From IMG/VR virus record IMGVR_UViG_3300029258_001887: a stretch of 64,000 nucleotides of DNA, one strand, 5' to 3'. Source of the DNA: a virus. The position numbers and the translations under genes were made by a program. Of the stretch, positions 21,948-60,249 are shown in pieces. The notes beneath the pieces are model-generated. The model was not told the DNA's origin and made no database searches. It saw nothing but the letters and a program-made list of their open reading frames with translations. Within the stretch, counting starts at the first letter, position 1; the number at the start of each line of letters is the position of its first letter.

Positions 21948-23405
21948 CTATTCTCCCTTGATCTCATAAGACAGCTTAACTCCGCTGAATTCACTCGGCA
22001 GGATCACGGCGAGTTGGTCAACGACCCTCTGCCTCAAATCCACCGCCACATCCAATACCACCTTCAATTCGTCTGGGGTGACCGTCTTGGCCGTCCTGTG
22101 CGGGAACATCAGCTTCAACAAACCAGACCCTATCCGAACCAACGATCGCTGGTTACGCTGAGACATATCACCGAAACACACATTCTCTGTGATCACCGGC
22201 GCATAGTTGCGGTCTCTCATCCGGTGCATGATTTCGCTGACATAATCTGCCATGAATCCAGCACCCTTGGCTAGCTTTGACTCTCTTATCTGAGGTATCT
22301 GCCATCCAGGAATGAATCCATGGATACGGTCAAGGAAAGCACGGTCTTGACTGACTGCTTGTGGCAGCGGAGCAAACAGGCTGCGATACCGAGCGGCCAC
22401 CGCCTTTTTCTGCCTGTCGCAGTCAATGTTGCCAGCGAACATGATGGAACACCCAGACGCAAACTCTGCCGTACCACGCCCGAAGCGTCCACTGTTCATG
22501 AAGTCTTTGAGCATATCGATGAGATCGCCCTGACCAGACCACTTGTTACCGTTGTGACCACCAGCAAACTCATCGAACATCACCACATCTCGATATCCGA
22601 CCAAGCCCAGTTGACGCCGCAACTTATCGTAGAACAGAGAAGCGACAGTGGTTTGACCACCAGAGACAACGAAGCCATAAGAGCTAAGGGACTGGTAAGC
22701 GAACGTCTTGCCTGTTTCCGGTGGGCCTAGCTCACAGAAATTTACGTTGGCTTCAATGAAGGGCACCAGCCGCACCATATACAACAGTTTCTCTTGGTGC
22801 GACAGAGCTTCGGGGTCAAAGCCGACACTGGTGATCATCAGGTCAAGCCACTCATCGTCTGTGAATCGCTCACGACGCTGAATCCATGTGTCGAGGTTGA
22901 TCCCGGTGATTTGCATAGGTCGGAATTCGGTGACCAGGAATGGGTACAGCTTTTTCCGCATGACGTAGGATTCATCGTACACGATTTTGAAGACACCCCA
23001 CGCCCCGGTTGTCAACAACGTGTCCCCGTACTCGGCTATGAGGTGCGGATTGATCCTGACATACTGGTTACCCAGCGCCGTGACATCAACCCAATATTCA
23101 TCCTTGCCCTCGTCGAACCGACAGCGGATACGACCAATCAGAGTGTATTCGCCTTGCTCCCTGATCCGACTTTTGACCAGTTCCTTTTGGTCCGATTCCA
23201 TGAAGTGATCGGTAAGCAGTTTGCTGATACGTTCCAGGCCGGGGGTTGGGTCTGTCGGGGTGACCATCTCGGAAATCAGGTAGTCCACCACAAATGCCGG
23301 GAGCTTGCGGAATTGCTCGCTGAGACACGCGAGACCTTTGTTTACAATAATTCCACGCTCACTGAAAACAGCGGCGGCTTTGTGTTTTGTCTCGATTCCG
23401 GTCAT
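21948..23405 (-). CDS. BrxL-like (TIGR02688-type) AAA+ ATPase without Lon protease domain
   Basis: R..FT.DEW.DL...S.G, ELGPPETGKT, T.ASLFYD, FDE, G.F.RG, AFLDR.HG.IPGW.IP. Confidence 0.82.
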   Translation of the reverse strand: MTGIETKHKAAAVFSERGIIVNKGLACLSEQFRKLPAFVVDYLISEMVTPTDPTPGLERISKLLTDHFMESDQKELVKSRIREQGEYTLIGRIRCRFDEGKDEYWVDVTALGNQYVRINPHLIAEYGDTLLTTGAWGVFKIVYDESYVMRKKLYPFLVTEFRPMQITGINLDTWIQRRERFTDDEWLDLMITSVGFDPEALSHQEKLLYMVRLVPFIEANVNFCELGPPETGKTFAYQSLSSYGFVVSGGQTTVASLFYDKLRRQLGLVGYRDVVMFDEFAGGHNGNKWSGQGDLIDMLKDFMNSGRFGRGTAEFASGCSIMFAGNIDCDRQKKAVAARYRSLFAPLPQAVSQDRAFLDRIHGFIPGWQIPQIRESKLAKGAGFMADYVSEIMHRMRDRNYAPVITENVCFGDMSQRNQRSLVRIGSGLLKLMFPHRTAKTVTPDELKVVLDVAVDLRQRVVDQLAVILPSEFSGVKLSYEIKGE

Positions 23406-28981: not shown

Positions 28982-29995
28982 CTAACTATCCTTTGGCATT
29001 GTTTCGCTGAGAGATAGTGGGCTCACCACAACGTACTTCACAGCAGACCGTAGTTGGTCAAGATTCTCAGCGCCACCCATCGCAAGACCAGACCTGATTC
29101 CCTTGATGTACTCGCCCACGACTTCTTCTGTCTGGCCTCTGTCCCCCATCTCGATCTCGACACCCTCTGGGGCAATGTCTGGCCTACCGGAAACGGCACG
29201 ACTGCTCATTCCACGGTACATCTTACGACCGTCAATACGGGGGGTCGCATTCGTTCCAGCCAACATGTACCCGATCATACACGCATCAGCGCCAGCCCAA
29301 AGAGCCTTGACCATATCTCCGCTGGTTCTAAGTCCACCATCAGCGATAATAGAAATGCCGCCATATCCAGCTTCTAGAGACTGGTATGCTTCTTGGATGG
29401 CTGCTAGCTGTGGATAACCAAACCCAGTGACTAGTCTGGTAGTACAAGCTGCTCCAGGGCCGATGCCGACCTTAATGGCATCCACACCATGATCTGCGAA
29501 TTTGCGGGTGGCCTCTGGGGTACACACGTTGCCAGCCATAATGATGAAGTGGTGGTGATCTTTCAGTCCTACCAAAATCTTGATGGCTTCATACATCTTT
29601 TCGTGATCGCCATGAGCCACATCCAGACAGATGACGTTGCATCCAGCGTTGAGTAGTAGCTGTGCCTTTTGGCCTACGTCCCCCTTGATGCCGATTGCAC
29701 ACCCAATGTTGTTTGCCCCTTGGTTGCGAGCCCAATGGATTTCGCGTATTTGTCTACCCATCTCTTCGTCTGGGTCAAGATTGATGTGACGGCTGAGGAT
29801 ACCGAGACCGCCGATCTTGTCCATGACTACGAGCATATACTTCCCGGTAATCGAATCCATTGGGGCGGAGATAAGTGGAGACCTCAACTCCAATTTGCCA
29901 AGATGCGTTGACACATCCGGCACTGTCCGCGAGTCCAGTTTGGAGTATTGCGGGACGAGCAAGATGTCGTTGAAACACAGCTTTCGATCCTGCAT
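28982..29995 (-). CDS. IMP dehydrogenase / GMP reductase (no CBS domains)
   Basis: F.DILLVP, SAPMD, DVAHG, AGNV, KVGIGPGAACTTR, IADGG, YRGMSS. Confidence 0.9.
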   Translation of the reverse strand: MQDRKLCFNDILLVPQYSKLDSRTVPDVSTHLGKLELRSPLISAPMDSITGKYMLVVMDKIGGLGILSRHINLDPDEEMGRQIREIHWARNQGANNIGCAIGIKGDVGQKAQLLLNAGCNVICLDVAHGDHEKMYEAIKILVGLKDHHHFIIMAGNVCTPEATRKFADHGVDAIKVGIGPGAACTTRLVTGFGYPQLAAIQEAYQSLEAGYGGISIIADGGLRTSGDMVKALWAGADACMIGYMLAGTNATPRIDGRKMYRGMSSRAVSGRPDIAPEGVEIEMGDRGQTEEVVGEYIKGIRSGLAMGGAENLDQLRSAVKYVVVSPLSLSETMPKDS

Positions 29996-47555: not shown

Positions 47556-47628
47556 TGCCCCTGACCGGGTACGATCCGGTATCTGCGGCTTGAAGGGCCG
47601 CTGTCCTATCCATTTAGACGACAGGGGC
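47556..47628 (-). tRNA. tRNA-Glu (TTC), atypical, no encoded CCA
   Basis: Cloverleaf: GCCCCTG/CAGGGGC acceptor, GTC/GAC D-stem, GCGGC-CCTTCAA-GCCGC anticodon arm, ACCGG-ATCGTAC-CCGGT T arm. Confidence 0.8.
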
Positions 47629-50468: not shown

Positions 50469-53400
50469 CTTCTACCGAAGAGGTACTGTGGTCCGACTTT
50501 GGTCCAAACCACACACCATGTCCTGACCACATTCTTCGCACTCTGTCACAGTGATCGGCCACGCCGAGCATTGATCCAGTGTTTTAACGTGACCACACGG
50601 ACACTGGTACTTTGCCCGAAACGCAGTGTGTTCGCCACACCAACCGTAATTGGCTGTGCATGTGTGCAGTCCGACACGACGTTGACCTATCGGTTTCAGT
50701 TCGATTTTCATGGTCTAATCCTCGTACAAATCGAGTTCGGCGCGCAGGAAGACTGAATCGTTGTTGTCTGGGGTGAAGATTTCTTCTAACTCTCCATCCC
50801 GCACATTACAGCCGATGTCTCCTAGCACCACGATTCTGTCCTGTGGAACCGCTGACAGTTTTTCTATCAGTTCTTTGACTGTCATTTAGTTTTCTCCATG
50901 CCTATTCGCAACTGATTCGACCGCGCACACAGTAATCGTGGACACGATCTATCACTTCCGTCTTGACTGTGAACTCGTAGGCATCATCCGGTAGTGGCTG
51001 GACAGAGAATGGAGTAGACAGCCATACCAGATAACCAGCGAGATTCTGTGCGCCAGCTTCCTTGGCGACGACAATGTGTTCAGTCAGCGAATCACCCCAG
51101 TCGCCATTGGCCAACTCAGTTATCAACTGTTTCGCGGCATCGTTGTCGCCTGCCCTGGCTTTTGCAGCAAGTTGTTTTAGGTGTTTATCCTGTCTTCTTG
51201 ACATCGTGTTTCTCCAGAAAGAGAGGGGTAGGGCGGTCCAAGCGGTCGTCGGCTGACAAGGCGATCAACCCTTGACCCGCGACTTTGCCCGCCCAAACCC
51301 CAAGACTAGGAATGTGGCTGGTGGTGTTTCATTGGCGTCTCCCGTCGTGAACCGCTGCCTCTTCGATCGGCGACTCATCCTGGCCGCAATCCAACCGACG
51401 ACCCACGGTCGCCCCCGACGATCCTCGACTCCCACCTACATACTACTGTAGCCACCATTTCGCACCGCTGCGCCAGCGATGCCCCAGTCTACTCACCATG
51501 AACATAGTCGATGGCGTCTACGATCTCAGGCAGACTACCCTCGAAGTGAAGCCCCACCATGCCACACTTCGGACAAACATCCATGTTGTCGTGATCTGGG
51601 TGGGGCACTGTTTTCGTACTACACTCTGGGCATACCATACAACGATCTCCATGGACTGGTTGACTTGATATCCTTTTCCCTGAAGCCCCAGTCGTCTCCC
51701 CCATGCAGGTAGTAGACTGGTTCGCCGTCGATGATTTCGACAAGGCCAATCTGGAAAACCATCCCAGGAGGCGCAGGGACACCAGCCTTATAGGCTTCGT
51801 CGGTCACGATATGAACCATGTCACCGACTTTGAACTTGGGTTTCATTGGCCGTCCCCCCAGAAAAACAGACACACCGTAAACTAGACTTCATCCATTTGG
51901 TTTTTTGCAGCCGCTTCACGCTTCCGCCGACGATGCAGGCGGTTGCCCTTACACCACTCGCAAGACCCGTGGTTCCTGCACGAACAGTCGAATGCCTTGG
52001 ATTTCCGGTACTTCTTCCGCTTTTCCTTCCCGTGCTCGATTCCCTTGTCCAGAGACATGACTGGCTCCATGCTACCGACGCGAATGCTTGGGGACATTCC
52101 CCGCGTGATGAGCACCCTCAAGGTGGTTCAGACCCCGGATGCGCTTCTGACAGACAGGACACCGCTGGCCGACCTTGACCACGATATCCTTCCCTTCGTC
52201 GTCCTGCCCGATGACGATCGGCTCGCCGTGGTGGACGTTACTGCCTTGCTGGCGATGGTGAGCCTGCTCCAGATGGACGCCGCGATCAGACAGTACCTGG
52301 TGCGGAACCGGACCCTTTTTGGTGTTCTTCTGCTTTTTCGCCATGACTTTCCCCTTTGGGTTGTAGGTGCCTATTCGTACAATGACGGATCGGCGACCCA
52401 ACTGATGAGCCGCAGACCCCGTTCCGTTCGCTGCGCGATGTCGTATGCCCCGCGCCTGCGCCTGACACAGAAGACTACAGCCTGGCGCATGGTGACCTGC
52501 TGACGGACAACCACGCCATCCCAAGTGACGACACAATACTTCCGTTCTGATTCGATGACCATCATCACATCCTCGGATCGATTTCCTCGTCGTCGTTCCC
52601 CGGACACCCGCCGCAGTCGCAATCGTCTTCGTTATCATCGTTCCATTGGCAGTCCTGACAGTGTTGGCACTCATCACAGCCACAGTTGAAGCCGTCGCAC
52701 TGGTGATGATCACCACACTCCTTCGGTTCATCCTGCTGGTGGACTTCCCACGTCAGACGACCCTTCGGAGTCTCCAGGATAGCCCGGTCGATTTCGACAC
52801 TGTGGATCATCCGGCCCATCAGTCTCAGCGCCGAATCTTCGGACTCGACTTCCTGCCTATCCGTGCCGTTGGCCCGAACGAATGCATTAGCATTGAAATT
52901 CGTACTCGTTTTGTTCCAGACGGTCAACACGTTCATGGTAGACACCCCCTTGTGTAGAAAACGTTTCCACGACTTCTTGTCGATCAGACGACCTGGAATA
53001 CTCGTCGCCCGTATGACGCGATATCATCCAGTTCGCGCGCATCGATCGACCCGTCAAAACATACGACCTGATACCTGACGAATGCCGCTAGGGCATCCAG
53101 TGTGACTGTGATCGGGGCGAACCCAGGCAGCGCACACCCGCTGAATATGCTGGTATCGACCCCGGACAGATCAGCGTCAGACCGTGCGATTTCGAGCGCT
53201 GTCGATAGTTCTTGCTTGGTCATGGTTTTCAACCATCCTCTATGACTGTGGTTGATCCAAACCACTCAGTTATTACTGCCGCATACGGCTCACTGGTATC
53301 ACGACCAGACTCAGGACCAATGTCGATGATCCTGATCCCATTGATTCTCATCGCATTAACGATGTCATCAATGGTGAGCCTAGACAGATCGATTCCGCAT

Positions 53401-53751
53401 GTTTCCATTGAGTTTTCCTTACTAATACCGAAGTCCCCACCGACCCCAGCCAAGCCCCACTTACGGACATTACGGCATCGGCACTGTGAAACTACCGATG
53501 CTATATCCAGTGACTTTCCCCCCTACAAGGGTCTTTCCTGTTATTCTACTCTCATCGCCCCATTCTGATTTTGTCTTCTTCGGCGAACAGTGAACGGCAG
53601 TTTGCCAGAACGACCCAGACTGCCCAGACAGACCAAACACAGACTGCTCCAGACAGCCACACCGCAGCCCAGCACGCAGCCACGAGCCGCCGTGCAAACC
53701 GCTTGACGGATTCATCGACCCCGACAGCCGGATCAGGTACAGTTTCCATTT

Positions 53752-54297
53752 TCATACCGCCCCCCTCGCTTTCCGTTCGAGACTGGCGATCATTTCCGCT
53801 CTGGCTTTGCGCTCTCTCCGCAGCATCCGGCGACGTGGTTGTTTCTTGATTCGAGCCAGTTCCTTCTGCGCCTTGACCACTTCCGGGTCACGTTGCGCCA
53901 TCTGGATTTCGGCAGACGAGACCAGACCACACCTGCCCCCATCGACCCGCCTTGGCCTACGGGTAGCCGTCGCGTTCGCCGACTTCCGCCGAACCAGCGT
54001 GTGGCGTTTCTTCTTGAATTGTCCGTCGAGCCCGACTTCCATCTGCACTTCAGACTGGCCCTTGCGCCGTGTCGTGAATCCCATCCGACCATCGCCGCAC
54101 TTGATCCTCTGCCAGTCTTCCCCGCCGAACCGCTTGCCGCCCTTGACCGGGACGCAGAACTCAGACCGGGCGAACCGATTACTCTCGGCCCACTGCCGCG
54201 CCTCCCCTTCGAGACGATTGTACCCGTACCCGTCCCCGCAGCTTGTAGCGCCGGGTTTTTCGCGTTTACAGCACCGACAAGGCTGTTTCTCGGACAT
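53752..54297 (-). CDS. Basic hypothetical protein
   Basis: ORF with GGGGG RBS. Confidence 0.5.
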   Translation of the reverse strand: MSEKQPCRCCKREKPGATSCGDGYGYNRLEGEARQWAESNRFARSEFCVPVKGGKRFGGEDWQRIKCGDGRMGFTTRRKGQSEVQMEVGLDGQFKKKRHTLVRRKSANATATRRPRRVDGGRCGLVSSAEIQMAQRDPEVVKAQKELARIKKQPRRRMLRRERKARAEMIASLERKARGAV

Positions 54298-54730
54298 TTT
54301 GTACCCCCTTTGTAGTACAAGACGTTAGCTAGCGCCACCACACGACGATAGCCCACAAGATTCAAGGAATCAGGTACGCTTTTTGTATCTAGCGCCACCC
54401 TCACCCACTCTGCCCCACGCGCCACCACCAACCCCCACCGACCAGTGCAGAATCGTATATAGGAACACACACAGGCCAAACTAGACTAGGATCGCTCTTG
54501 ACTTTGCAGTGCTTCGCAACCCCGTTTTTGACCCTGTGAGCCCCGATTTTGCGCCAGTCAGCTATCATGCCCCCACTAACAAGAACACCAAGCCCCACGC
54601 AAGCCTGAGCGAGCCAGCGTTTCTTGAAGCTCGATTTTGTACCTGCATCAGAGGCACACCAAGACTACCCCGAAAAACCCCGGAAAGTCTCAAAAAAACC
54701 CCGGATAGTTTCTCAGGACAAGGTGTAGTT

Positions 54731-55471
54731 TGAAAGGGTCGATAACAGCGCCAGCAGCGCAGCAAGAAATCCCTGACGAGAACGCACAGTCGATGCCGTA
54801 GAGGCTTGGACCTATGCGCCCATCAGGGACTTTTTGCCACGCTGCCAGACCGTAATCTGACAACGTGACTTTATGACTCACGCCCCGGTGAATTCTCGCT
54901 GGCAATTCATGACTCCGGGACGGTCTCGTTGGAGTCTTGTTTTAACGACTGATCGAGTCGAGACTGCCGCGCCAGTGCGGTGGTTCAGTTTATTCAACCC
55001 GTCCGTCGTGTCGTGTCGTTCGGCTACATCAGAATCGGGCAGACGCTATCACACAGCGCGCCACGAGACTGAGCCATTCCAACAAACCTAGAACCGCGCC
55101 ACTATCCAACCCGCCGACCCTCGCGCCCTCAGCAGGGACGTTTCAGACCTTTGCGAAAGAAATCGTTGTGACGAAATTTACAGGGTTTGTTATTGGAAAT
55201 GCCTATCCCACGACAATGTTTGAAGCCTACACCAGACGTTACGGCGGATTCCCATGACGGACCGTAGAATAGTCAACACGACTTGTCCTTTTGCGTCTTG
55301 CTGCCCCAATGCTGAATCGGAGCCCATTGCCAGACGTACAAGGAATCGTGCAGACGATTCGCCACTTATCCCGCCCACGCCATGACGGCGCAGACCGAGC
55401 CCGCATTTCGGACTCTGCGTTTTGCCGCTGCTCAGGACTGGCGTTCGACCGATAACCGTTGACCCTTTTCA
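54731..55471 (-). ncRNA. Large structured ncRNA candidate (~740 nt)
   Basis: End-to-end pairing, long G-U-containing hairpins, no credible ORF. Confidence 0.5.
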
Positions 55472-55736
55472 GACCCGGAGCGCACGTCCTGCGCGCCTGA
55501 CAGACCCTACCGAGGCGACTATCGGACTACTACCCAACCCCTTCCGGGAATACCCGACGCTTATCGGACCCCCCGCTGTGGTTGGTTATGGGAACCGCTG
55601 ACCCTAGATGGTGGGCCTATAACGACAGGGTGCTACCCTGACAAGCGATTCAATCCAGACTTTAAGCCTGAATGCCCATCGGTCCACGCCCCCAGCGCTC
55701 GACTAGGGGCGCGGTGCGGCAGGCACTCCGCAGAGA

Positions 55737-56048
55737 CTACTTGCCCAGTGCGCTGAACGCCTTGCGAGTAGCGCCGACGCTGTTCCGGCGACCGAGCAGA
55801 CTCTCGGCAATCACCGCAGCATTATCGGAGCCGAACCCGAGACTCTTATCGGGCGTGTACCCCGCGCCTTCCTCGATCTGACGCTCCAAGACTTCCCACG
55901 CTTCCGTGAGCGCGGCGATGGCGTCGTCGAGACTGTCGTACCCGGACGCGGCATCGACGATGCGCTTCGCGCCACGGTAGACGGCAGCGTTGGCCAGAAA
56001 AGTATCGGACCCAAACTCGACCTGCGTTCCGGTGGCATTATCGGACAT
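55737..56048 (-). CDS. Hypothetical protein
   Basis: GGGAG RBS; downstream of a sigma70-type promoter. Confidence 0.6.
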   Translation of the reverse strand: MSDNATGTQVEFGSDTFLANAAVYRGAKRIVDAASGYDSLDDAIAALTEAWEVLERQIEEGAGYTPDKSLGFGSDNAAVIAESLLGRRNSVGATRKAFSALGK

Positions 56049-56274
56049 CTTACGTCTCCCTACAGGTGACGCCCGTCCCATTATGCCCAGACTACCCCGT
56101 CCAGACTATAGGACGGGCAAGTAGTGAACCAGACACAGAACAGTTATTCGGACCTACATTGCACAGGCCACTTATTATCGGCGGTTCTGATAACCGCGTC
56201 GGGTTGCGTCCGAAAACACGCGCCGGACCCCAACGTCCGTTTTCGTGTTCTCGTTTTCTTTAATCTTACATTAT

Positions 56275-56303
56275 ACTATACCCCTAGTTATACAAAAGGT
56301 CAA
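56275..56303 (-). promoter_or_regulatory. Sigma70-type promoter
   Basis: TTGACC-N17-TATAGT. Confidence 0.7.
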
Positions 56304-57442
56304 TGCGAGATCCGTTTTTTTTCATCGGCGTTTTTGGGCTTCAATCCACGATCTTATCGCACTTCGACCGATAATATCGAATTATAACAACGTCCGCTTT
56401 CGTGTGTCCGATAATACCGACCTTTTTGAGCTAGTCCGAGAAAACCCCGTTTTTATACGCCCAGAAGGTCGATTTTCCCGGACCTTCCGATAAAACAGCT
56501 TACGCTAGTCCTATAACTCGGCCACTTCGTCCGATAAAACCGGCCTGGAGCGGAAAACCGCGATATTATCTACCCTTTCCGATAATCTGCACGTCCGAAT
56601 GTGCAAAACCGCCCGCAGATACAAGAAAACGTGGACATTATCACACACACCAAACTAGTTCCCGGACAGAACCGATAAAACGCCCGGCGCAAAGTCCGAT
56701 AAATTACTGGGTCCGCTCCTTGGTCCGATAACCTTTGCCCGACGCAAAAGGGTCCGATAACGTCCCGATATGCAAACGTCCTATAACTTCATTCTGGCTG
56801 TAGTCCGATAACTCGTGCTTGCGCTATAGTCCCATAATATAGCGCTATGGACCTATAACCTTTCACGGGCCAACGTCCGATAACATAGCGCGGTCGGCCT
56901 ATGTCCGATAACTCCGAGGCATCGGTTGTTCGTCCGATAATGTCACGTTTTTTCGCAAAAAAACTCACATTCGATATTCTAGGCCACGTCCTAGAATATC
57001 ATGCACACGAGCACACAGGGTAAATGATTCCTGGTCAGGTCCGATAAAAGCTCACGGCGGAACGTCCGATAATTCGGAACGTCCCAGCGAGCCCCAAGGT
57101 CCGATATCACGTCGTGGTCCGAATAAGATGCGGAGTATGCCACGTCCGAGAACCACTAACCATGCGTTGAAATCCTAGTTCAATTATTCTAGGGTCCGAT
57201 AGCTCGTCGTCGCCAGCCGTAAGGTCCGATATGATGCCGAGGGCCTCTTGGTCCGATAGCTCGTCGTTGTCCAGTCTTACTGCAATGTACCTTGCCATGT
57301 TATCGCCCCTACCACATTGCCAAGGTTATCAGAACCATGTAAAGTACCGTTTTAATCCAGAATCGTGTCTCACGTCCCATAATTCGGTCCTCCCCAGAGC
57401 GAGGTAGGGTCCGAAAACCCTACCCCGCCCAACGTCCGAGAA

Positions 57443-57817
57443 CTACATGCCAGCGTTTCCGCACGCATCGTGCGCAGTTATCGGGCGAGCCGAAGCATTA
57501 TCGGCCACTAGGCGCTCGTCGAATCGGCCTACGTTATCGGCCTCGTCCACGTCCGAGAACATGAGCTTGCCGATATACCCATAATTGTTGCCCAGATTGC
57601 GTTCCAGTGCTGCTTTAGCTCGTTTCTTGGTGGTCCCAAAACCACACGCGCCGTAGGTCCGAGAATGAAACGGACCAACCACTTCCGCCCGATAACCGTG
57701 GGCGCACTTAACGTACCAGTATTGGACCGTCCGCTTTCGGGACAGTTTATACTGGATTGCTTCGTCCGATAGTGCCACACGACCCGTCTGCCCGATAACT
57801 TTCTGCTTGGTTGTCAT
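57443..57817 (-). CDS. Hypothetical protein
   Basis: GGAG RBS; promoter upstream. Confidence 0.6.
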   Translation of the reverse strand: MTTKQKVIGQTGRVALSDEAIQYKLSRKRTVQYWYVKCAHGYRAEVVGPFHSRTYGACGFGTTKKRAKAALERNLGNNYGYIGKLMFSDVDEADNVGRFDERLVADNASARPITAHDACGNAGM

Positions 57818-57863
57818 CGTAAATCTCCAAGGTCCGAAAAAGTATCGTTTTCCCTTACACTAT

Positions 57864-57891
57864 ATTATAGCATATACCAGCAGGATGTCAA
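57864..57891 (-). promoter_or_regulatory. Sigma70-type promoter
   Basis: TTGACA-N16-TATAAT. Confidence 0.75.
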
Positions 57892-58248
57892 GCCCGATAA
57901 CGAGTTTTTTTCTGGTTTTCTTGCGTCCGATAATCTGCGCCGGATTCTCTCGCGCTGAGATTTCGTGGTCCGATAACGGAACCGGTCGAATACCGATCGG
58001 TTGGTCCCATAACGATTGCAGCACCAGAGCAGTAGTCCGATAACTCCGCACACAACGATGGGGCCGATAAACTCCCAGATGATTCCGATAACAAACGTCG
58101 CGCCGATGATGATTCCGATAACCGACAAGAACAGCTTTGTAAAGTATGAGTAAACTTCCCAGCCATCGGGTTTGGCCCGATAATTCTCATCGTTTTTCTT
58201 GGTGGCGATAACCATGTCGGAATAGTCCGGTATCAAATCAGGCCCCAT
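57865..58248 (-). CDS. Hypothetical membrane protein built partly from motif codons
   Basis: AAGGAGG RBS; VIG/IIG-rich TM segment; 3' end uncertain. Confidence 0.5.
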   Translation of the reverse strand: MGPDLIPDYSDMVIATKKNDENYRAKPDGWEVYSYFTKLFLSVIGIIIGATFVIGIIWEFIGPIVVCGVIGLLLWCCNRYGTNRSVFDRFRYRTTKSQRERIRRRLSDARKPEKNSLSGLTSCWYML

Positions 58249-58273
58249 AACGTCCTCCTTTCGTGTCCACTAT

Positions 58274-58302
58274 ATTATACCATGCAATCGCCCAGAAGTC
58301 CA
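58274..58302 (-). promoter_or_regulatory. Sigma70-type promoter
   Basis: TGGACT-N17-TATAAT with TG extended -10. Confidence 0.65.
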
Positions 58303-59797
58303 GGTCCGATAACGCCTTTTTTCGGAAAAATCTTTTGGTCCTATAATGTGCCCCGCTGCGATGCGCCACGCCCTATGATATTCCTGGCACCATCCGATAA
58401 TTCCATGCAAGAAAGCACACACACGAAACCATTATACGCCACGTCCTATAATCGCGCACGGCTCAACGTCCTATAATTCTGAACGTCCTACCGAGGCCAG
58501 GGTCCGATAACACACACCAAACTGCTTCTCACATTATCGGACCTTCGCGCACGGCCCAACGTCCTATAACTCCAGCAGGTCGTCGCCGGTCAACGTCCGA
58601 TAATCTTACAGGATCGGTCCTCCGATAACATTGTTTGCGTATTCCCGAAATCCACCCGCACGTCTGATAACGTCCATGTCAACGTCCGATACTGTCCATT
58701 CTATTGTACCGATGCAACATTCCGATAATGGTAGGTGATCCTGGGTATGGTCCGGTAACCGATTCCGCAGGATGCCGTCAATTATCGGTCGTTCCCATAA
58801 TGTTCCTGCTGCTTCCGCTATCACTTGAAATTCTTCTGGTCCGCTAACTCGGTATCTTGCCATGTTATCGCTCCCTTCAACGTCTGATAATCTGGTCGCG
58901 CGGTACCCATTGTCCGATATTGTCGGCCATATCGGCGTCCGTTTTGGTCCAATAAATCTGCCAGTATTCACATCGTCGGCCCGGTTTAGTACGTCCGGTA
59001 AGATACCCAACCAGCGTATCGTGTCCGATAAGCGTAACAAGTGTCCCTTTAATCGGCTCCATGTTATCGCTCCCTTCTCAGTGTTCCGATAACTACTTCA
59101 TTCCGTAGGGTATCGTATCCGATAACTTTCTCGGTTCCGTCCGATAGCGTAACAAACACGAACTCATGTTCGTCCGATAATAGCATCCCGAACAGTCTGC
59201 CGTAGGACATGGCGAGCGCGTCCGATAAGCCGTCTTCCCGTATCGCATCGGAGTTATCGGTCGCCGGAACTTCAAGTCTTGCTTTACCTAGCATGGTACG
59301 TCTCCTGATTATCGGGCAGAGCCCACAAGGTCCGATACTAGAATGTACTGCTCACAGGCCCGATAACTCGGCCAGTTTTCGGGCGGTCGAAAGGCCGATA
59401 TTCCCGGCAATTCACGAACAGGGTTATCGGTCACAGAAACGATCTCGGCTGATTCCGATAATTTCAGCCAGTCCACTAGGTCCGATACGTAAAGCGCGGG
59501 AACCACAGCGTACATTTTGTGCCGATAATCCGTAGTCCGATAGGTAACCAGCATCCACTTCATAGTTATCACCCCTTACAGGATACGTCCGTTATAGGAA
59601 CCTTTACACCGATTAAAGCTCAGCCTGATTCCGTTTATCGCACCTAGCACAGCGATTCCAGCCACAACGTACAGGCCGTTTATCGGATCATTCGATACCC
59701 AAGCCACAACGTCCGATACTGCGTTCTCGGCTGCTTGCTTCAAGGTCTGATAATCCATCGTGTTTTCCTTTCGTGTTATCGTTTCCCCTACATTCTA

Positions 59798-59826
59798 ATT
59801 GTAGGATACAATCGGCAAGAATGCAA
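59798..59826 (-). promoter_or_regulatory. Sigma70-type promoter
   Basis: TTGCAT-N17-TACAAT upstream of ORF 59576-59758. Confidence 0.55.
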
Positions 59827-60249
59827 GAAACAAAAAGAAAAAAGTTGAGTCCGATAACCATACCTTGCATGTCATGCAAGAACATAGTCTGATAACACAT
59901 CACGTCCGATAATTTTCTCGGATCGGTTGGGATTGGTTGGTCCGATAACTTTCGCTGGGTAGGGGTCCGATAACTCGGCTCTGGGGGTATGCCCGATAAA
60001 TGCGCATGTCCGATAACTGGGGCGGGTCCGAAAACCGCTGGGGGTGCAATCACAACCGGGTCGATTTTCTAAGCGGTACCCACTTTTCGTGTACACTCTT
60101 TCTCGTATCACCCGCCTTGTCGTCCACAATCCTGTGCATTACCCGCTTTACCGTCCACGATCCTGAACATGGGGGTACCCCTTTCTCAACCCCTGAATCA
60201 ACCGCTTTATCAGACATGCCTTCACCTGAAAAAAAATCGGGGGGCTGTC

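What the first reader, a model, noticed from the sequence alone, without database searches (positions are those of the whole stretch)
54731..55471. Candidate large (~740 nt) structured non-coding RNA
There is about 1 kb without a credible ORF in an otherwise gene-dense genome. On the minus strand the ends pair: TGAAAAGGGTC(55471-55461) with GACCCTTTCA(54740-54731), and CGCCAG(55443-55438) with CTGGCG(54754-54749). Inside lie a ~90-nt hairpin (54754-54845) whose imperfections are largely G-U pairs only on this strand, plus GAATCGT/ACGATTC, GACTCC/GGAGTC and CGCAGA/TCTGCG helices. It lies downstream of a strong sigma70-type promoter. Its size is comparable to large phage/bacterial RNAs such as GOLLD, ROOL and MISL, but I see no group I/II intron, tmRNA or RNase P hallmarks.
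Basis: partly seen in the sequence, partly recalled or inferred. Interest (0 to 1): 0.75.

Follow-up and report, generated by a model that had tools for sequence, protein, structure and literature searches.

The report
Kilobase structured early phage RNA
The gene-free stretch encodes a real, elaborately folded non-coding RNA of about 0.9-1 kb that large sediment phages make early in infection, always with the same small protein; it matches no described RNA family and its function is unknown.

Summary
The conserved element is window 55736..54869 on the minus strand (868 nt), starting 11 nt after the stop codon of a 103-aa gene. Pattern and protein searches gave about 30 distinct relatives from sediment and salt-marsh viromes. 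On 27 aligned sequences, 208 consensus pairs in 37 helices are 92% paired, against 37-42% with partners slid. 116 pairs show compensatory double changes, and 0 of 500 shuffles reach the observed values. G-U pairs make up 17.5% of paired cells, which fixes the minus strand as the RNA strand. All reading frames are closed in every relative. Rfam 15 gives nothing, even at E<=10. A conserved TTGACN-17-TATAGT promoter, a structured 220-nt leader and the small gene precede the RNA in every locus that has upstream sequence. Most likely this is a stable early RNA that works with its co-encoded protein, but the function was not tested. This scan had already found the same family in related phages (e1-5678238, e1-6043426, e1-6043440). 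I found no description of it in the papers searched.

The parts
56275..56303 (-). sigma70-type promoter TTGACC-17-TATAGT (overlapping TATAAT) of the protein-RNA unit
   Evidence: Consensus scan gives 10 of 12 matches. A TTGACN-17-TATAGT site lies at -520 to -600 from the RNA start in about 17 relatives, with a conserved TGTATAACT spacer. Activity was not tested.
56049..56268 (-). about 220-nt 5' leader with two conserved hairpins (GCGGUU...AACCGC and GGCCUG-UGCAAU-GUAGGUCC)
   Evidence: In the alignment of 19 relatives both stems change sequence but stay complementary, judged by eye. The transcription start is inferred from the promoter.
55737..56048 (-). gene for a 103-aa helical protein (pI 4.6, basic C-terminal 30 aa) of an unnamed family
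   Evidence: GGGAG lies 8 nt before ATG 56048. There are 178 protein clusters at 90% identity and 68 at 50%. AF2 with an alignment gives pLDDT 88.5. No Pfam, PHROG, Foldseek, VIA-align or Atlas match. It lies directly upstream of the RNA in 23 of 23 loci with upstream sequence, and also in L103 and L104.
54869..55736 (-). conserved core of the structured RNA (868 nt, 37 consensus helices plus a 3' domain)
   Evidence: nhmmer covers the whole model in about 30 loci. Alignment A3 has 208 pairs, 92.2% paired, 116 with double changes. In the window 202 of 208 pairs form, 36 of them G-U. z is -3.8 on the minus strand and -0.7 on the plus strand. No frame is open.
55582..55600 (-). 19 nt (CAGCGGUUCCCAUAACCAA) invariant among the pattern-retrieved sequences; its 5' part is the 3' strand of helix H5, the rest is unpaired in the consensus
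   Evidence: Invariant in all 27 sequences of A3. These were found with this very pattern, so part of the invariance is by selection. L104, found through the protein, differs by one base.
55434..55541 (-). domain H11-H15. It holds GUCCGAUAG (55527-55519) paired with GGUUAUCGG (55458-55450), and a GGGUCUG-hairpin-GGGUCUG module
   Evidence: Helices 11-15 have compensatory changes; coordinates. The word copies are conserved across relatives.
55224..55396 (-). domain H18-H24, a long multi-helix arm
   Evidence: 28 of its 45 pairs show double changes; coordinates.
55009..55215 (-). domain H25-H33. It includes a second GGUCUG-hairpin-GGGUC module (55149-55116) and a variable region
   Evidence: The stretch 55075-55025 aligns poorly and its structure is not resolved.
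54875..54936 (-). 3' domain: GACUC 54936-54932 with GAGUC 54879-54875; CGUCCCGG 54922-54915 with CCGGGGCG 54888-54881; inner hairpin
   Evidence: Both helices covary across 16-17 relatives.
54754..54869 (-). subgroup-specific 3' extension: hairpin 54869-54836 and the long hairpin 54845-54754. The two compete for GCAGCGUGGC (54845-54836)
   Evidence: Found only in the window, L034 and L045; L001 has the long hairpin only. It replaces the GGGCCUACGGGCC hairpin and the GGUGGG-loop terminator of most relatives. No T-run terminator follows in the window, so the RNA's 3' end here is unknown.

Best explanation
This is a gene for a roughly 0.9-1.0-kb, intricately folded non-coding RNA of an undescribed family.

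Shown:
- The sequence 55736..54869 (minus strand) is conserved in about 30 related large phages.
- It cannot encode a protein.
- It keeps about 210 base pairs through compensatory changes, with G-U pairs that make sense only on the minus strand.

Inferred from sequence signals that are conserved in relatives:
- Host RNA polymerase starts at a strong sigma70-type promoter (56303-56275).
- It transcribes a structured 220-nt leader and a 103-aa gene, then runs without a break (11-nt linker) into the RNA.
- In most relatives transcription stops at an intrinsic terminator 940-1070 nt after the RNA's start. This window has a variant 3' end.

Inferred function, about 50% given that the RNA is real: the RNA is the main product of the unit. 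It accumulates as a stable particle early in infection and works together with the co-encoded acidic protein, whose basic C-terminal tail would bind it as it is made. That would give a dedicated RNA-protein particle acting in host take-over. It could be a scaffold or a decoy for a host or phage factor, or less likely a ribozyme. The target is unknown.
For: Homologs: a 19-nt pattern gave 38 metagenome loci and 7 viral loci. nhmmer confirms about 35 loci covering an 850-position model. Protein-based searches add L103, L104 and the divergent L100-L102.

Structure: 92.2% of 5443 cells are paired, against 37-42% with partners slid. 116 of 208 pairs have double changes, the covariation score is 0.334 against 0.07-0.09, and 0 of 500 shuffles reach it. 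The 3' domain adds 31 predicted pairs, 20 with double changes.

Strand: 17.5% of cells are G-U; the opposite strand would give 76.6% paired. z is -3.8 on the minus strand and -0.7 on the plus strand.

Non-coding: every frame has at least 8 stops in each of 23 full-length sequences. Only 37 of 432 indels are multiples of 3, and there is no 3-periodicity.

Unit: the small gene is directly upstream in 23 of 23 loci. The promoter is conserved in position and sequence. A GGUGGG-loop hairpin plus a T-run follows in most relatives.

Expression hint: one 250-nt contig from a salt-marsh metatranscriptome matches 55088-55265 at about 92%.
Against: No transcript ends, abundance or processing are known. 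The single metatranscriptome contig could come from DNA carry-over, and it comes from a relative. No binding between protein and RNA was tested: adjacency alone supports the partnership, and the protein is acidic overall (pI 4.6). The window lacks the family's usual terminator, so here the RNA may be read through into downstream genes. No catalytic or known tertiary motif was recognised, and no pseudoknot with covariation support was found.
Confidence: 0.85

Rival explanations
1. It is a cis-acting 3' untranslated region. The folded RNA only protects or regulates the mRNA of the 103-aa gene, for example as a barrier to 3' exonucleases or a translational control element, and has no function of its own.
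For: The RNA starts 11 nt after the stop codon and shares promoter and terminator with the gene.
Against: About 210 conserved pairs, a 19-nt invariant stretch and several nearly invariant single-stranded blocks over 870 nt far exceed what mRNA stabilisers need. The RNA is nearly three times as long as the ORF it would serve.
Confidence: 0.08
2. It is a DNA-level element: a replication origin, a packaging site or a recombination site. The conserved hairpins would form in single-stranded DNA, or the transcript would serve as a primer or R-loop as ColE1 RNA II does. This would link it to the neighbouring field of GTCCGATAA words.
For: The unit sits exactly where the polarity of the ~50-100-copy word field flips, next to an AT-rich promoter, in all relatives (notes e1-5742341 and e1-5742342). 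The RNA holds two conserved copies of the word and one of its complement.
Against: 17.5% of paired cells are G-U, including invariant G-U/U-G pairs, and pairing is strand-specific. Together with a promoter and terminator bracketing the element, this is the signature of an RNA. Origins do not need 37 helices.
Confidence: 0.04
3. It is a very divergent member of a known large RNA class (group I or II intron, RNase P, tmRNA, GOLLD, ROOL, OLE, HEARO) that Rfam models fail to recognise.
For: The size and complexity are in the range of these classes.
Against: cmscan found no such family at gathering scores over the whole window, and none at E<=10 over 54100-55900. ARAGORN finds no tRNA or tmRNA. There are no flanking exons, reverse transcriptase or IscB gene, and no adjacent tRNA genes.
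Confidence: 0.03
4. The stretch encodes small proteins that ORF calling missed.
For: Short ORFs of 55-95 codons exist in the window, and nucleotide conservation makes some of them match each other across loci.
Against: The open stretches differ in position, frame and strand between relatives. All frames carry at least 8 stops, 91% of indels shift the frame, and substitutions show no codon periodicity.
Confidence: 0.01

Closest known systems
GOLLD RNA (Rfam RF01998)
   Same: A very large (~800 nt), multi-domain, heavily covarying non-coding RNA carried by phages and prophages, function unknown. GOLLD forms RNA-only multimeric assemblies by cryo-EM (bioRxiv 10.1101/2024.12.08.627333, also PMC12286853; seen, abstract only).
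   Different: No sequence or structure match. Here the RNA is fused to a small protein gene under an early sigma70-type promoter and is not next to tRNA genes (the nearest is 7 kb away). GOLLD's usual tRNA neighbourhood is from my own knowledge. Multimerisation was not tested here.
ROOL RNA (Rfam RF03087)
   Same: A large ornate RNA of phages and prophages with unknown function.
   Different: ROOL is shorter (~580 nt, from my own knowledge). No Rfam match. It has no dedicated protein partner.
phi29 prohead RNA (pRNA, Rfam RF00044)
   Same: A phage-encoded structured RNA made from an early promoter that works only together with phage proteins (my own knowledge). It is a precedent for a phage RNA-protein machine.
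   Different: pRNA is about 170 nt and acts in DNA packaging. There is no match here, the size differs about six-fold, and no link to packaging genes was seen.
Candidate structured RNAs of viruses and phages (PMC10690425)
   Same: They were mined from IMG/VR, the same collection that holds relatives of this phage.
   Different: Those candidates are 29-151 nt long. At most they could contain fragments of this RNA, and no kilobase RNA is described there. The supplementary tables were not checked.

Membership tests
GOLLD / ROOL / OLE / HEARO (Rfam RF01998, RF03087, RF01071, RF02033) | Match to the family's covariance model | tested here: not met
   cmscan against all 4227 Rfam 15 models found no such hit at gathering scores over the whole window or at E<=10 over 54100-55900.
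GOLLD / ROOL | Assembly into RNA-only multimeric cages | not testable with these tools
   Needs cryo-EM or native gels of the transcript.
Group I / group II introns | Match to intron covariance models (catalytic core; domains V-VI) and flanking exons of an interrupted gene | tested here: not met
   No Rfam hit. The upstream gene ends at a conserved stop codon with its full-length family C-terminus. The downstream sequence is variable and unrelated between relatives.
tRNA / tmRNA / RNase P RNA | Detection by ARAGORN or by Rfam models | tested here: not met
   ARAGORN finds 0 genes in 54200-56400. No Rfam hit.
New family defined here (kilobase early phage RNA with a 103-aa partner gene) | Full-length match to the family profile and retention of the covarying helices | tested here: met
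   The window matches profile positions 1-848 with score 800. 202 of 208 consensus pairs form in the window.
New family defined here | Directly preceded by the small protein gene and a TTGACN-17-TATAGT promoter | tested here: met
   Gene at 55737-56048 and promoter at 56303-56275.
New family defined here | Ends with a GGUGGG-loop hairpin followed by a T-run | tested here: not met
   Present in most relatives but absent in the window, L034 and L045, which carry other 3' hairpins. The window is therefore a 3' variant of the family.

The most novel reading that the evidence does not exclude
The RNA and its 103-aa protein form a new kind of dedicated phage ribonucleoprotein machine that is functionally tied to the phage's polar word system. 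The early transcripts upstream carry about 50-100 copies of UUAUCGGAC. The protein-RNA unit carries only the complementary word GUCCGAUAA (5 copies, two of them at conserved places in the RNA) plus one internal complement. The switch of polarity falls exactly at the unit's promoter in every relative. The particle could therefore act as a decoy for, or a regulator of, whatever reads that word, for example to shut off early genes. Alternatively the RNA could be a new large ribozyme.
Probability: 0.15. Interest if true: 0.9.

Novelty: new variant of a known kind. Interest (0 to 1): 0.78.

Why it matters
Apart from ribosomal RNA, very few bacterial or phage RNAs approach 1 kb with this density of conserved structure. 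From my own knowledge, each class found so far has turned out to be a ribozyme or an unexpected RNA architecture, or is still unexplained (group II introns, RNase P, GOLLD, ROOL, OLE). This family has about 30 distinct sequences in hand and more than 130 covarying pairs, counting together. It also has a defined promoter, a terminator in most members and an obligatory small protein partner. That makes it a ready target for structure determination and for asking what large phages do with giant RNAs early in infection. The fixed position at the flip of a ~100-copy polar DNA/RNA word gives a concrete hypothesis to test.

Tried and rejected
- blastn of the gap against 50,697 isolated phage genomes gave no match. 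The AAA protein of the window reaches only 29% identity to mycobacteriophage proteins.
- No whole genome is held for the window.
- The 181-aa downstream protein gave no viral relatives by pattern search.
- The 15-mer TTGTCGTGKGATAGG gave 51 viral loci. Only the known relatives among them were homologs by nhmmer, so the rest are chance.
- The two genome-contig hits (Ruminococcaceae MAGs), L005, L011, L021 and L041 are chance matches. No host clue came from them.
- The small protein matched nothing in Pfam, PHROGs, Foldseek PDB or BFVD, VIA-align wide (best Z 3.6) or the ESM Atlas. The single-sequence AF2 model was poor, pLDDT 54.
- A scan of all column pairs of A3 for covarying stacks outside the nested structure found no convincing pseudoknot. 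The only candidate, columns 308-312 with 676-680, conflicts with the better supported H11.
- RNAalifold pairs the GGUGGG terminator loop with CAC of the GAACGACACGAC block. All three pairs are invariant or nearly so, so there is no support.
- The RNA-run search gave one salt-marsh run with a 0.06 share of words. Laid on the window it is a single 250-nt contig, too little to show expression, ends or habitat.
- Literature searches for a described kilobase phage RNA, and for the invariant 13-mer as text, found nothing.

Full report
**Setting.** The window is part of a large uncultured phage. It encodes ribonucleotide reductase, a DnaB-type helicase, an AAA ATPase and a BrxL-like protease, and nearly all genes lie on the minus strand. 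It has no close relative among isolated phages, and no whole genome is held for it. Between the gene ending at 55737 and the gene starting at 54297 there are 1.44 kb without a credible ORF. This kilobase has the highest G+C of the window, 0.596 against about 0.51.

**Checking the observation.** Rfam 15 gives only a tRNA at 47556-47628 at gathering scores, and nothing meaningful at E<=10 over 54100-55900.

**Relatives.**
- The small protein upstream of the gap led to two IMG/VR contigs whose gap sequence is 72-80% identical to the window.
- An invariant 17-19-nt stretch (CAGCGGTTCCCATAACCAA, window 55600-55582) then retrieved 7 viral and 38 metagenome loci.
- A profile search shows that about 35 of these cover one model of about 850 positions, equal to window 55745..54880.
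- After removing duplicates there are 32 distinct sequences, 23 of them full length.
- Searches through the protein added L103 and L104 (full RNA; in L104 the 19-mer differs by one base) and the more divergent L100-L102.
- By their record names the sources are sediment, salt-marsh and hypersaline-sediment metagenomes. One 160-kb contig is deposited as a Chloroflexi MAG, which is no proof of the host.

**Structure.** The 27-sequence alignment A3 gives an RNAalifold consensus of 208 pairs in 37 helices.
- Counted on the alignment, 92.2% of 5443 cells are standard pairs, against 36-42% when the 3' partners are slid by 1-3 columns.
- 116 pairs show changes on both sides (491 cells), against 44-61 pairs in the slid controls.
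- The covariation score is 0.334, against 0.066-0.093 in the slid controls.
- None of 500 column shuffles reaches any observed measure.
- A separate alignment of the 3' part (A5) adds helices with strong covariation. One is GGAUA/UAUCC, which reads GACUC/GAGUC in the window. Another is CGUCCUGG/CCAGGGCG.
- In the window 202 of the 208 consensus pairs form.

**Strand.** G-U pairs make up 17.5% of paired cells, and several are invariant. Read on the other strand, only 76.6% of cells would pair. The true element folds with z -3.8 on the minus strand and -0.7 on the plus strand. This is the gene strand.

**Not coding.** In all 23 full-length sequences every frame holds at least 8 stop codons. The longest open stretches sit at different places and in different frames. 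Only 37 of 432 pairwise indels are multiples of three. Column variability is equal at the three codon positions (0.227, 0.222, 0.222). The ORF 'families' overlapping the RNA are artefacts of nucleotide conservation.

**Boundaries and the transcription unit.**
- The upstream gene most likely starts at ATG 56048, with GGGAG 8 nt before it, and encodes 103 aa. It ends with ...GGC AAG TAG in nearly all relatives.
- The first covarying helix (H2) starts 12-13 nt after the stop codon, behind a linker that varies in length. There is no room for a separate promoter.
- The gene is directly upstream of the RNA in 23 of 23 loci with upstream sequence.
- About 220 nt before the ATG lies TTGACC-17-TATAGT (56303-56275). 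The same promoter, with a conserved TGTATAACT spacer, sits at -520 to -600 from the RNA start in about 17 relatives.
- The leader holds two hairpins whose stems change but stay complementary, judged by eye.
- On the 3' side most relatives continue for 130-250 nt. They have a GGGCCUACGGGCC hairpin, variable hairpins and a final hairpin with a conserved GGUGGG(UUGG) loop followed by a T-run. This places the end 940-1070 nt from the start.
- The window, L034 and L045 lack this end. They carry a hairpin at 54869-54836 and the long hairpin 54845-54754, which compete for GCAGCGUGGC. No T-run terminator follows, so the 3' end in this phage is open.
- In L001 the long hairpin lies after the terminator.

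- The two 'closing' helices fail. L034 keeps the first 3' arm with a 5' arm that no longer pairs and lacks the second 3' arm. Both 5' arms belong to covarying helices H11, H13 and H14.
- GAATCGT/ACGATTC is 83% paired without compensatory change, and its arms belong to H20-H23.
- GACTCC has the right 5' arm but pairs with the distal GAGUC.
- For CGCAGA/TCTGCG my script took the wrong 3' copy, so that figure is void. By eye CGCA/UGCG changes to CGUA/UACG in two relatives, but the arms overlap the well supported H17 and H18. This stays undecided.
- The 90-nt hairpin is real and is kept in four relatives, one of them with a wholly different interior.

**The partner protein.**
- The family has 178 clusters at 90% identity and 68 at 50% identity in 1.84 billion representatives. 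Almost all are stand-alone proteins of 100-130 aa, and none is named.
- With an alignment AlphaFold gives a confident helical model, pLDDT 88.5.
- It has no match in PDB, BFVD, the wide VIA-align search (best Z 3.6) or the ESM Atlas.
- The protein is acidic (pI 4.6) with a basic, highly conserved C-terminal tail...LGRRNxVGATRKAF..GK, pI 10.9.

**Expression.** One salt-marsh metatranscriptome run holds a 250-nt contig that matches 55088-55265 at about 92%. This is a weak hint that a relative's RNA is made. It shows no ends and no strand.

**Link to the word field.** Earlier notes of this scan describe about 100 copies of GTCCGATAA over 55500-60030, with a polarity flip near 56.2 kb. I tested this in the relatives. 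In all 16 oriented loci the sense strand upstream of about -650 carries TATCGGA 3-50 times and the complement rarely. From the unit's promoter onward only TCCGATA occurs (1-5 copies across operon and RNA, except L042, whose RNA carries one sense copy), and downstream of the RNA almost none. Two copies sit at conserved places in the RNA: the H10 hairpin, and the 5' strand of H12, whose partner is GGUUAUCGG. Whether this reflects a DNA-level polar array that merely reaches into the unit or an RNA-level relation is open.

**Interpretation.** The RNA gene, its strand, its fold and its fixed coupling to promoter, leader and small gene are shown or follow directly from conserved signals. The function is inferred. 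The size, the invariant unpaired blocks and the obligatory neighbour argue for an RNA that acts in its own right, probably as a particle with the 103-aa protein, made early by host polymerase. A mere 3' UTR, a DNA element, a hidden known family and a coding region are each unlikely, for the reasons given under the rivals.

**Novelty.** No Rfam family matches. The text searches, including one for the invariant sequence, found no paper describing it. The large IMG/VR survey of structured RNAs lists only motifs of 29-151 nt. The closest known things are GOLLD and ROOL, by size and phage association only. The same family was already reported by this scan from three other genomes with the same conclusion.

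Noticed in passing
window 55500-60030; loci L003, L006, L009, L017, L027, L029, L030, L034, L037, L040, L042-L045, L047: The polarity flip of the GTCCGATAA word field is conserved in all 16 oriented loci. It falls at the promoter of the protein-RNA unit. The sense strand has TATCGGA 3-50 times upstream. From the promoter on, TCCGATA is the word found (one or two exceptions: L042, L043), and downstream of the RNA almost none.
   Followed up: partly
window 56049-56268 (-): The 5' leader of the small gene is itself conserved and structured. It has two hairpins with compensatory changes, flanked by CCGAC, CCGAUAAUAAG and GUCCGAAUA blocks. It may be a regulatory or protein-binding site.
   Followed up: partly
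window 55507-55471 and 55149-55116 (-): Two similar modules occur inside the RNA: GGGUCUG, then a covarying hairpin, then GGGUCUG or GGGUCGG. The GGUC blocks are invariant, and RNAalifold pairs them only through G-U wobbles. This may be a repeated tertiary or binding motif rather than a helix. GTCTG occurs 10 times on the minus strand and 0 times on the plus strand in 54300-55740.
   Followed up: partly
window 52000-54000 (-): GTCTG is also enriched on the minus strand in the genes downstream, at 7 and 9 per kb against about 1.7 per kb elsewhere.
   Followed up: no
window 54673-54704 (-); also L002, L003, L007, L009: A roughly 40-nt element with two direct CCGGGGTTTTT repeats (GAGAAACTATCCGGGGTTTTTTTGAGACTTTCCGGGGTTTTT) is conserved, 92% over 41 nt in L007, even where the sequence between it and the RNA differs by more than 1 kb. 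It is not a hairpin terminator. It may be a phage-specific promoter or binding site for the next unit.
   Followed up: no
L013, L033, L040, L044 (downstream of the RNA): Hairpins with the same GGUGGG(UUGG) loop followed by T-runs recur two or three times downstream of the RNA in several relatives. These phages therefore seem to use a terminator class with a conserved loop sequence.
   Followed up: no
window 54836-54869 and 54754-54845 (-): The two 3' hairpins of the window variant are mutually exclusive, because both use GCAGCGUGGC at 54845-54836. L045 shows the same dual potential. This could be a switch or a coincidence.
   Followed up: no
window 21948-23405 (-), 28982-29995 (-): The phage encodes a BrxL-like Lon-type protease/ATPase (PF13337, E 5e-104) and an IMPDH/GMP-reductase-family protein (PF00478, E 4e-80).
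   Followed up: no
L001/L047 (IMGVR_UViG_3300014914_000003, 160 kb): The homolog of the small protein on this phage-like contig is deposited at NCBI as a protein of a Chloroflexi bacterium MAG. Either the phage contig was binned with a host or it was mis-binned.
   Followed up: no
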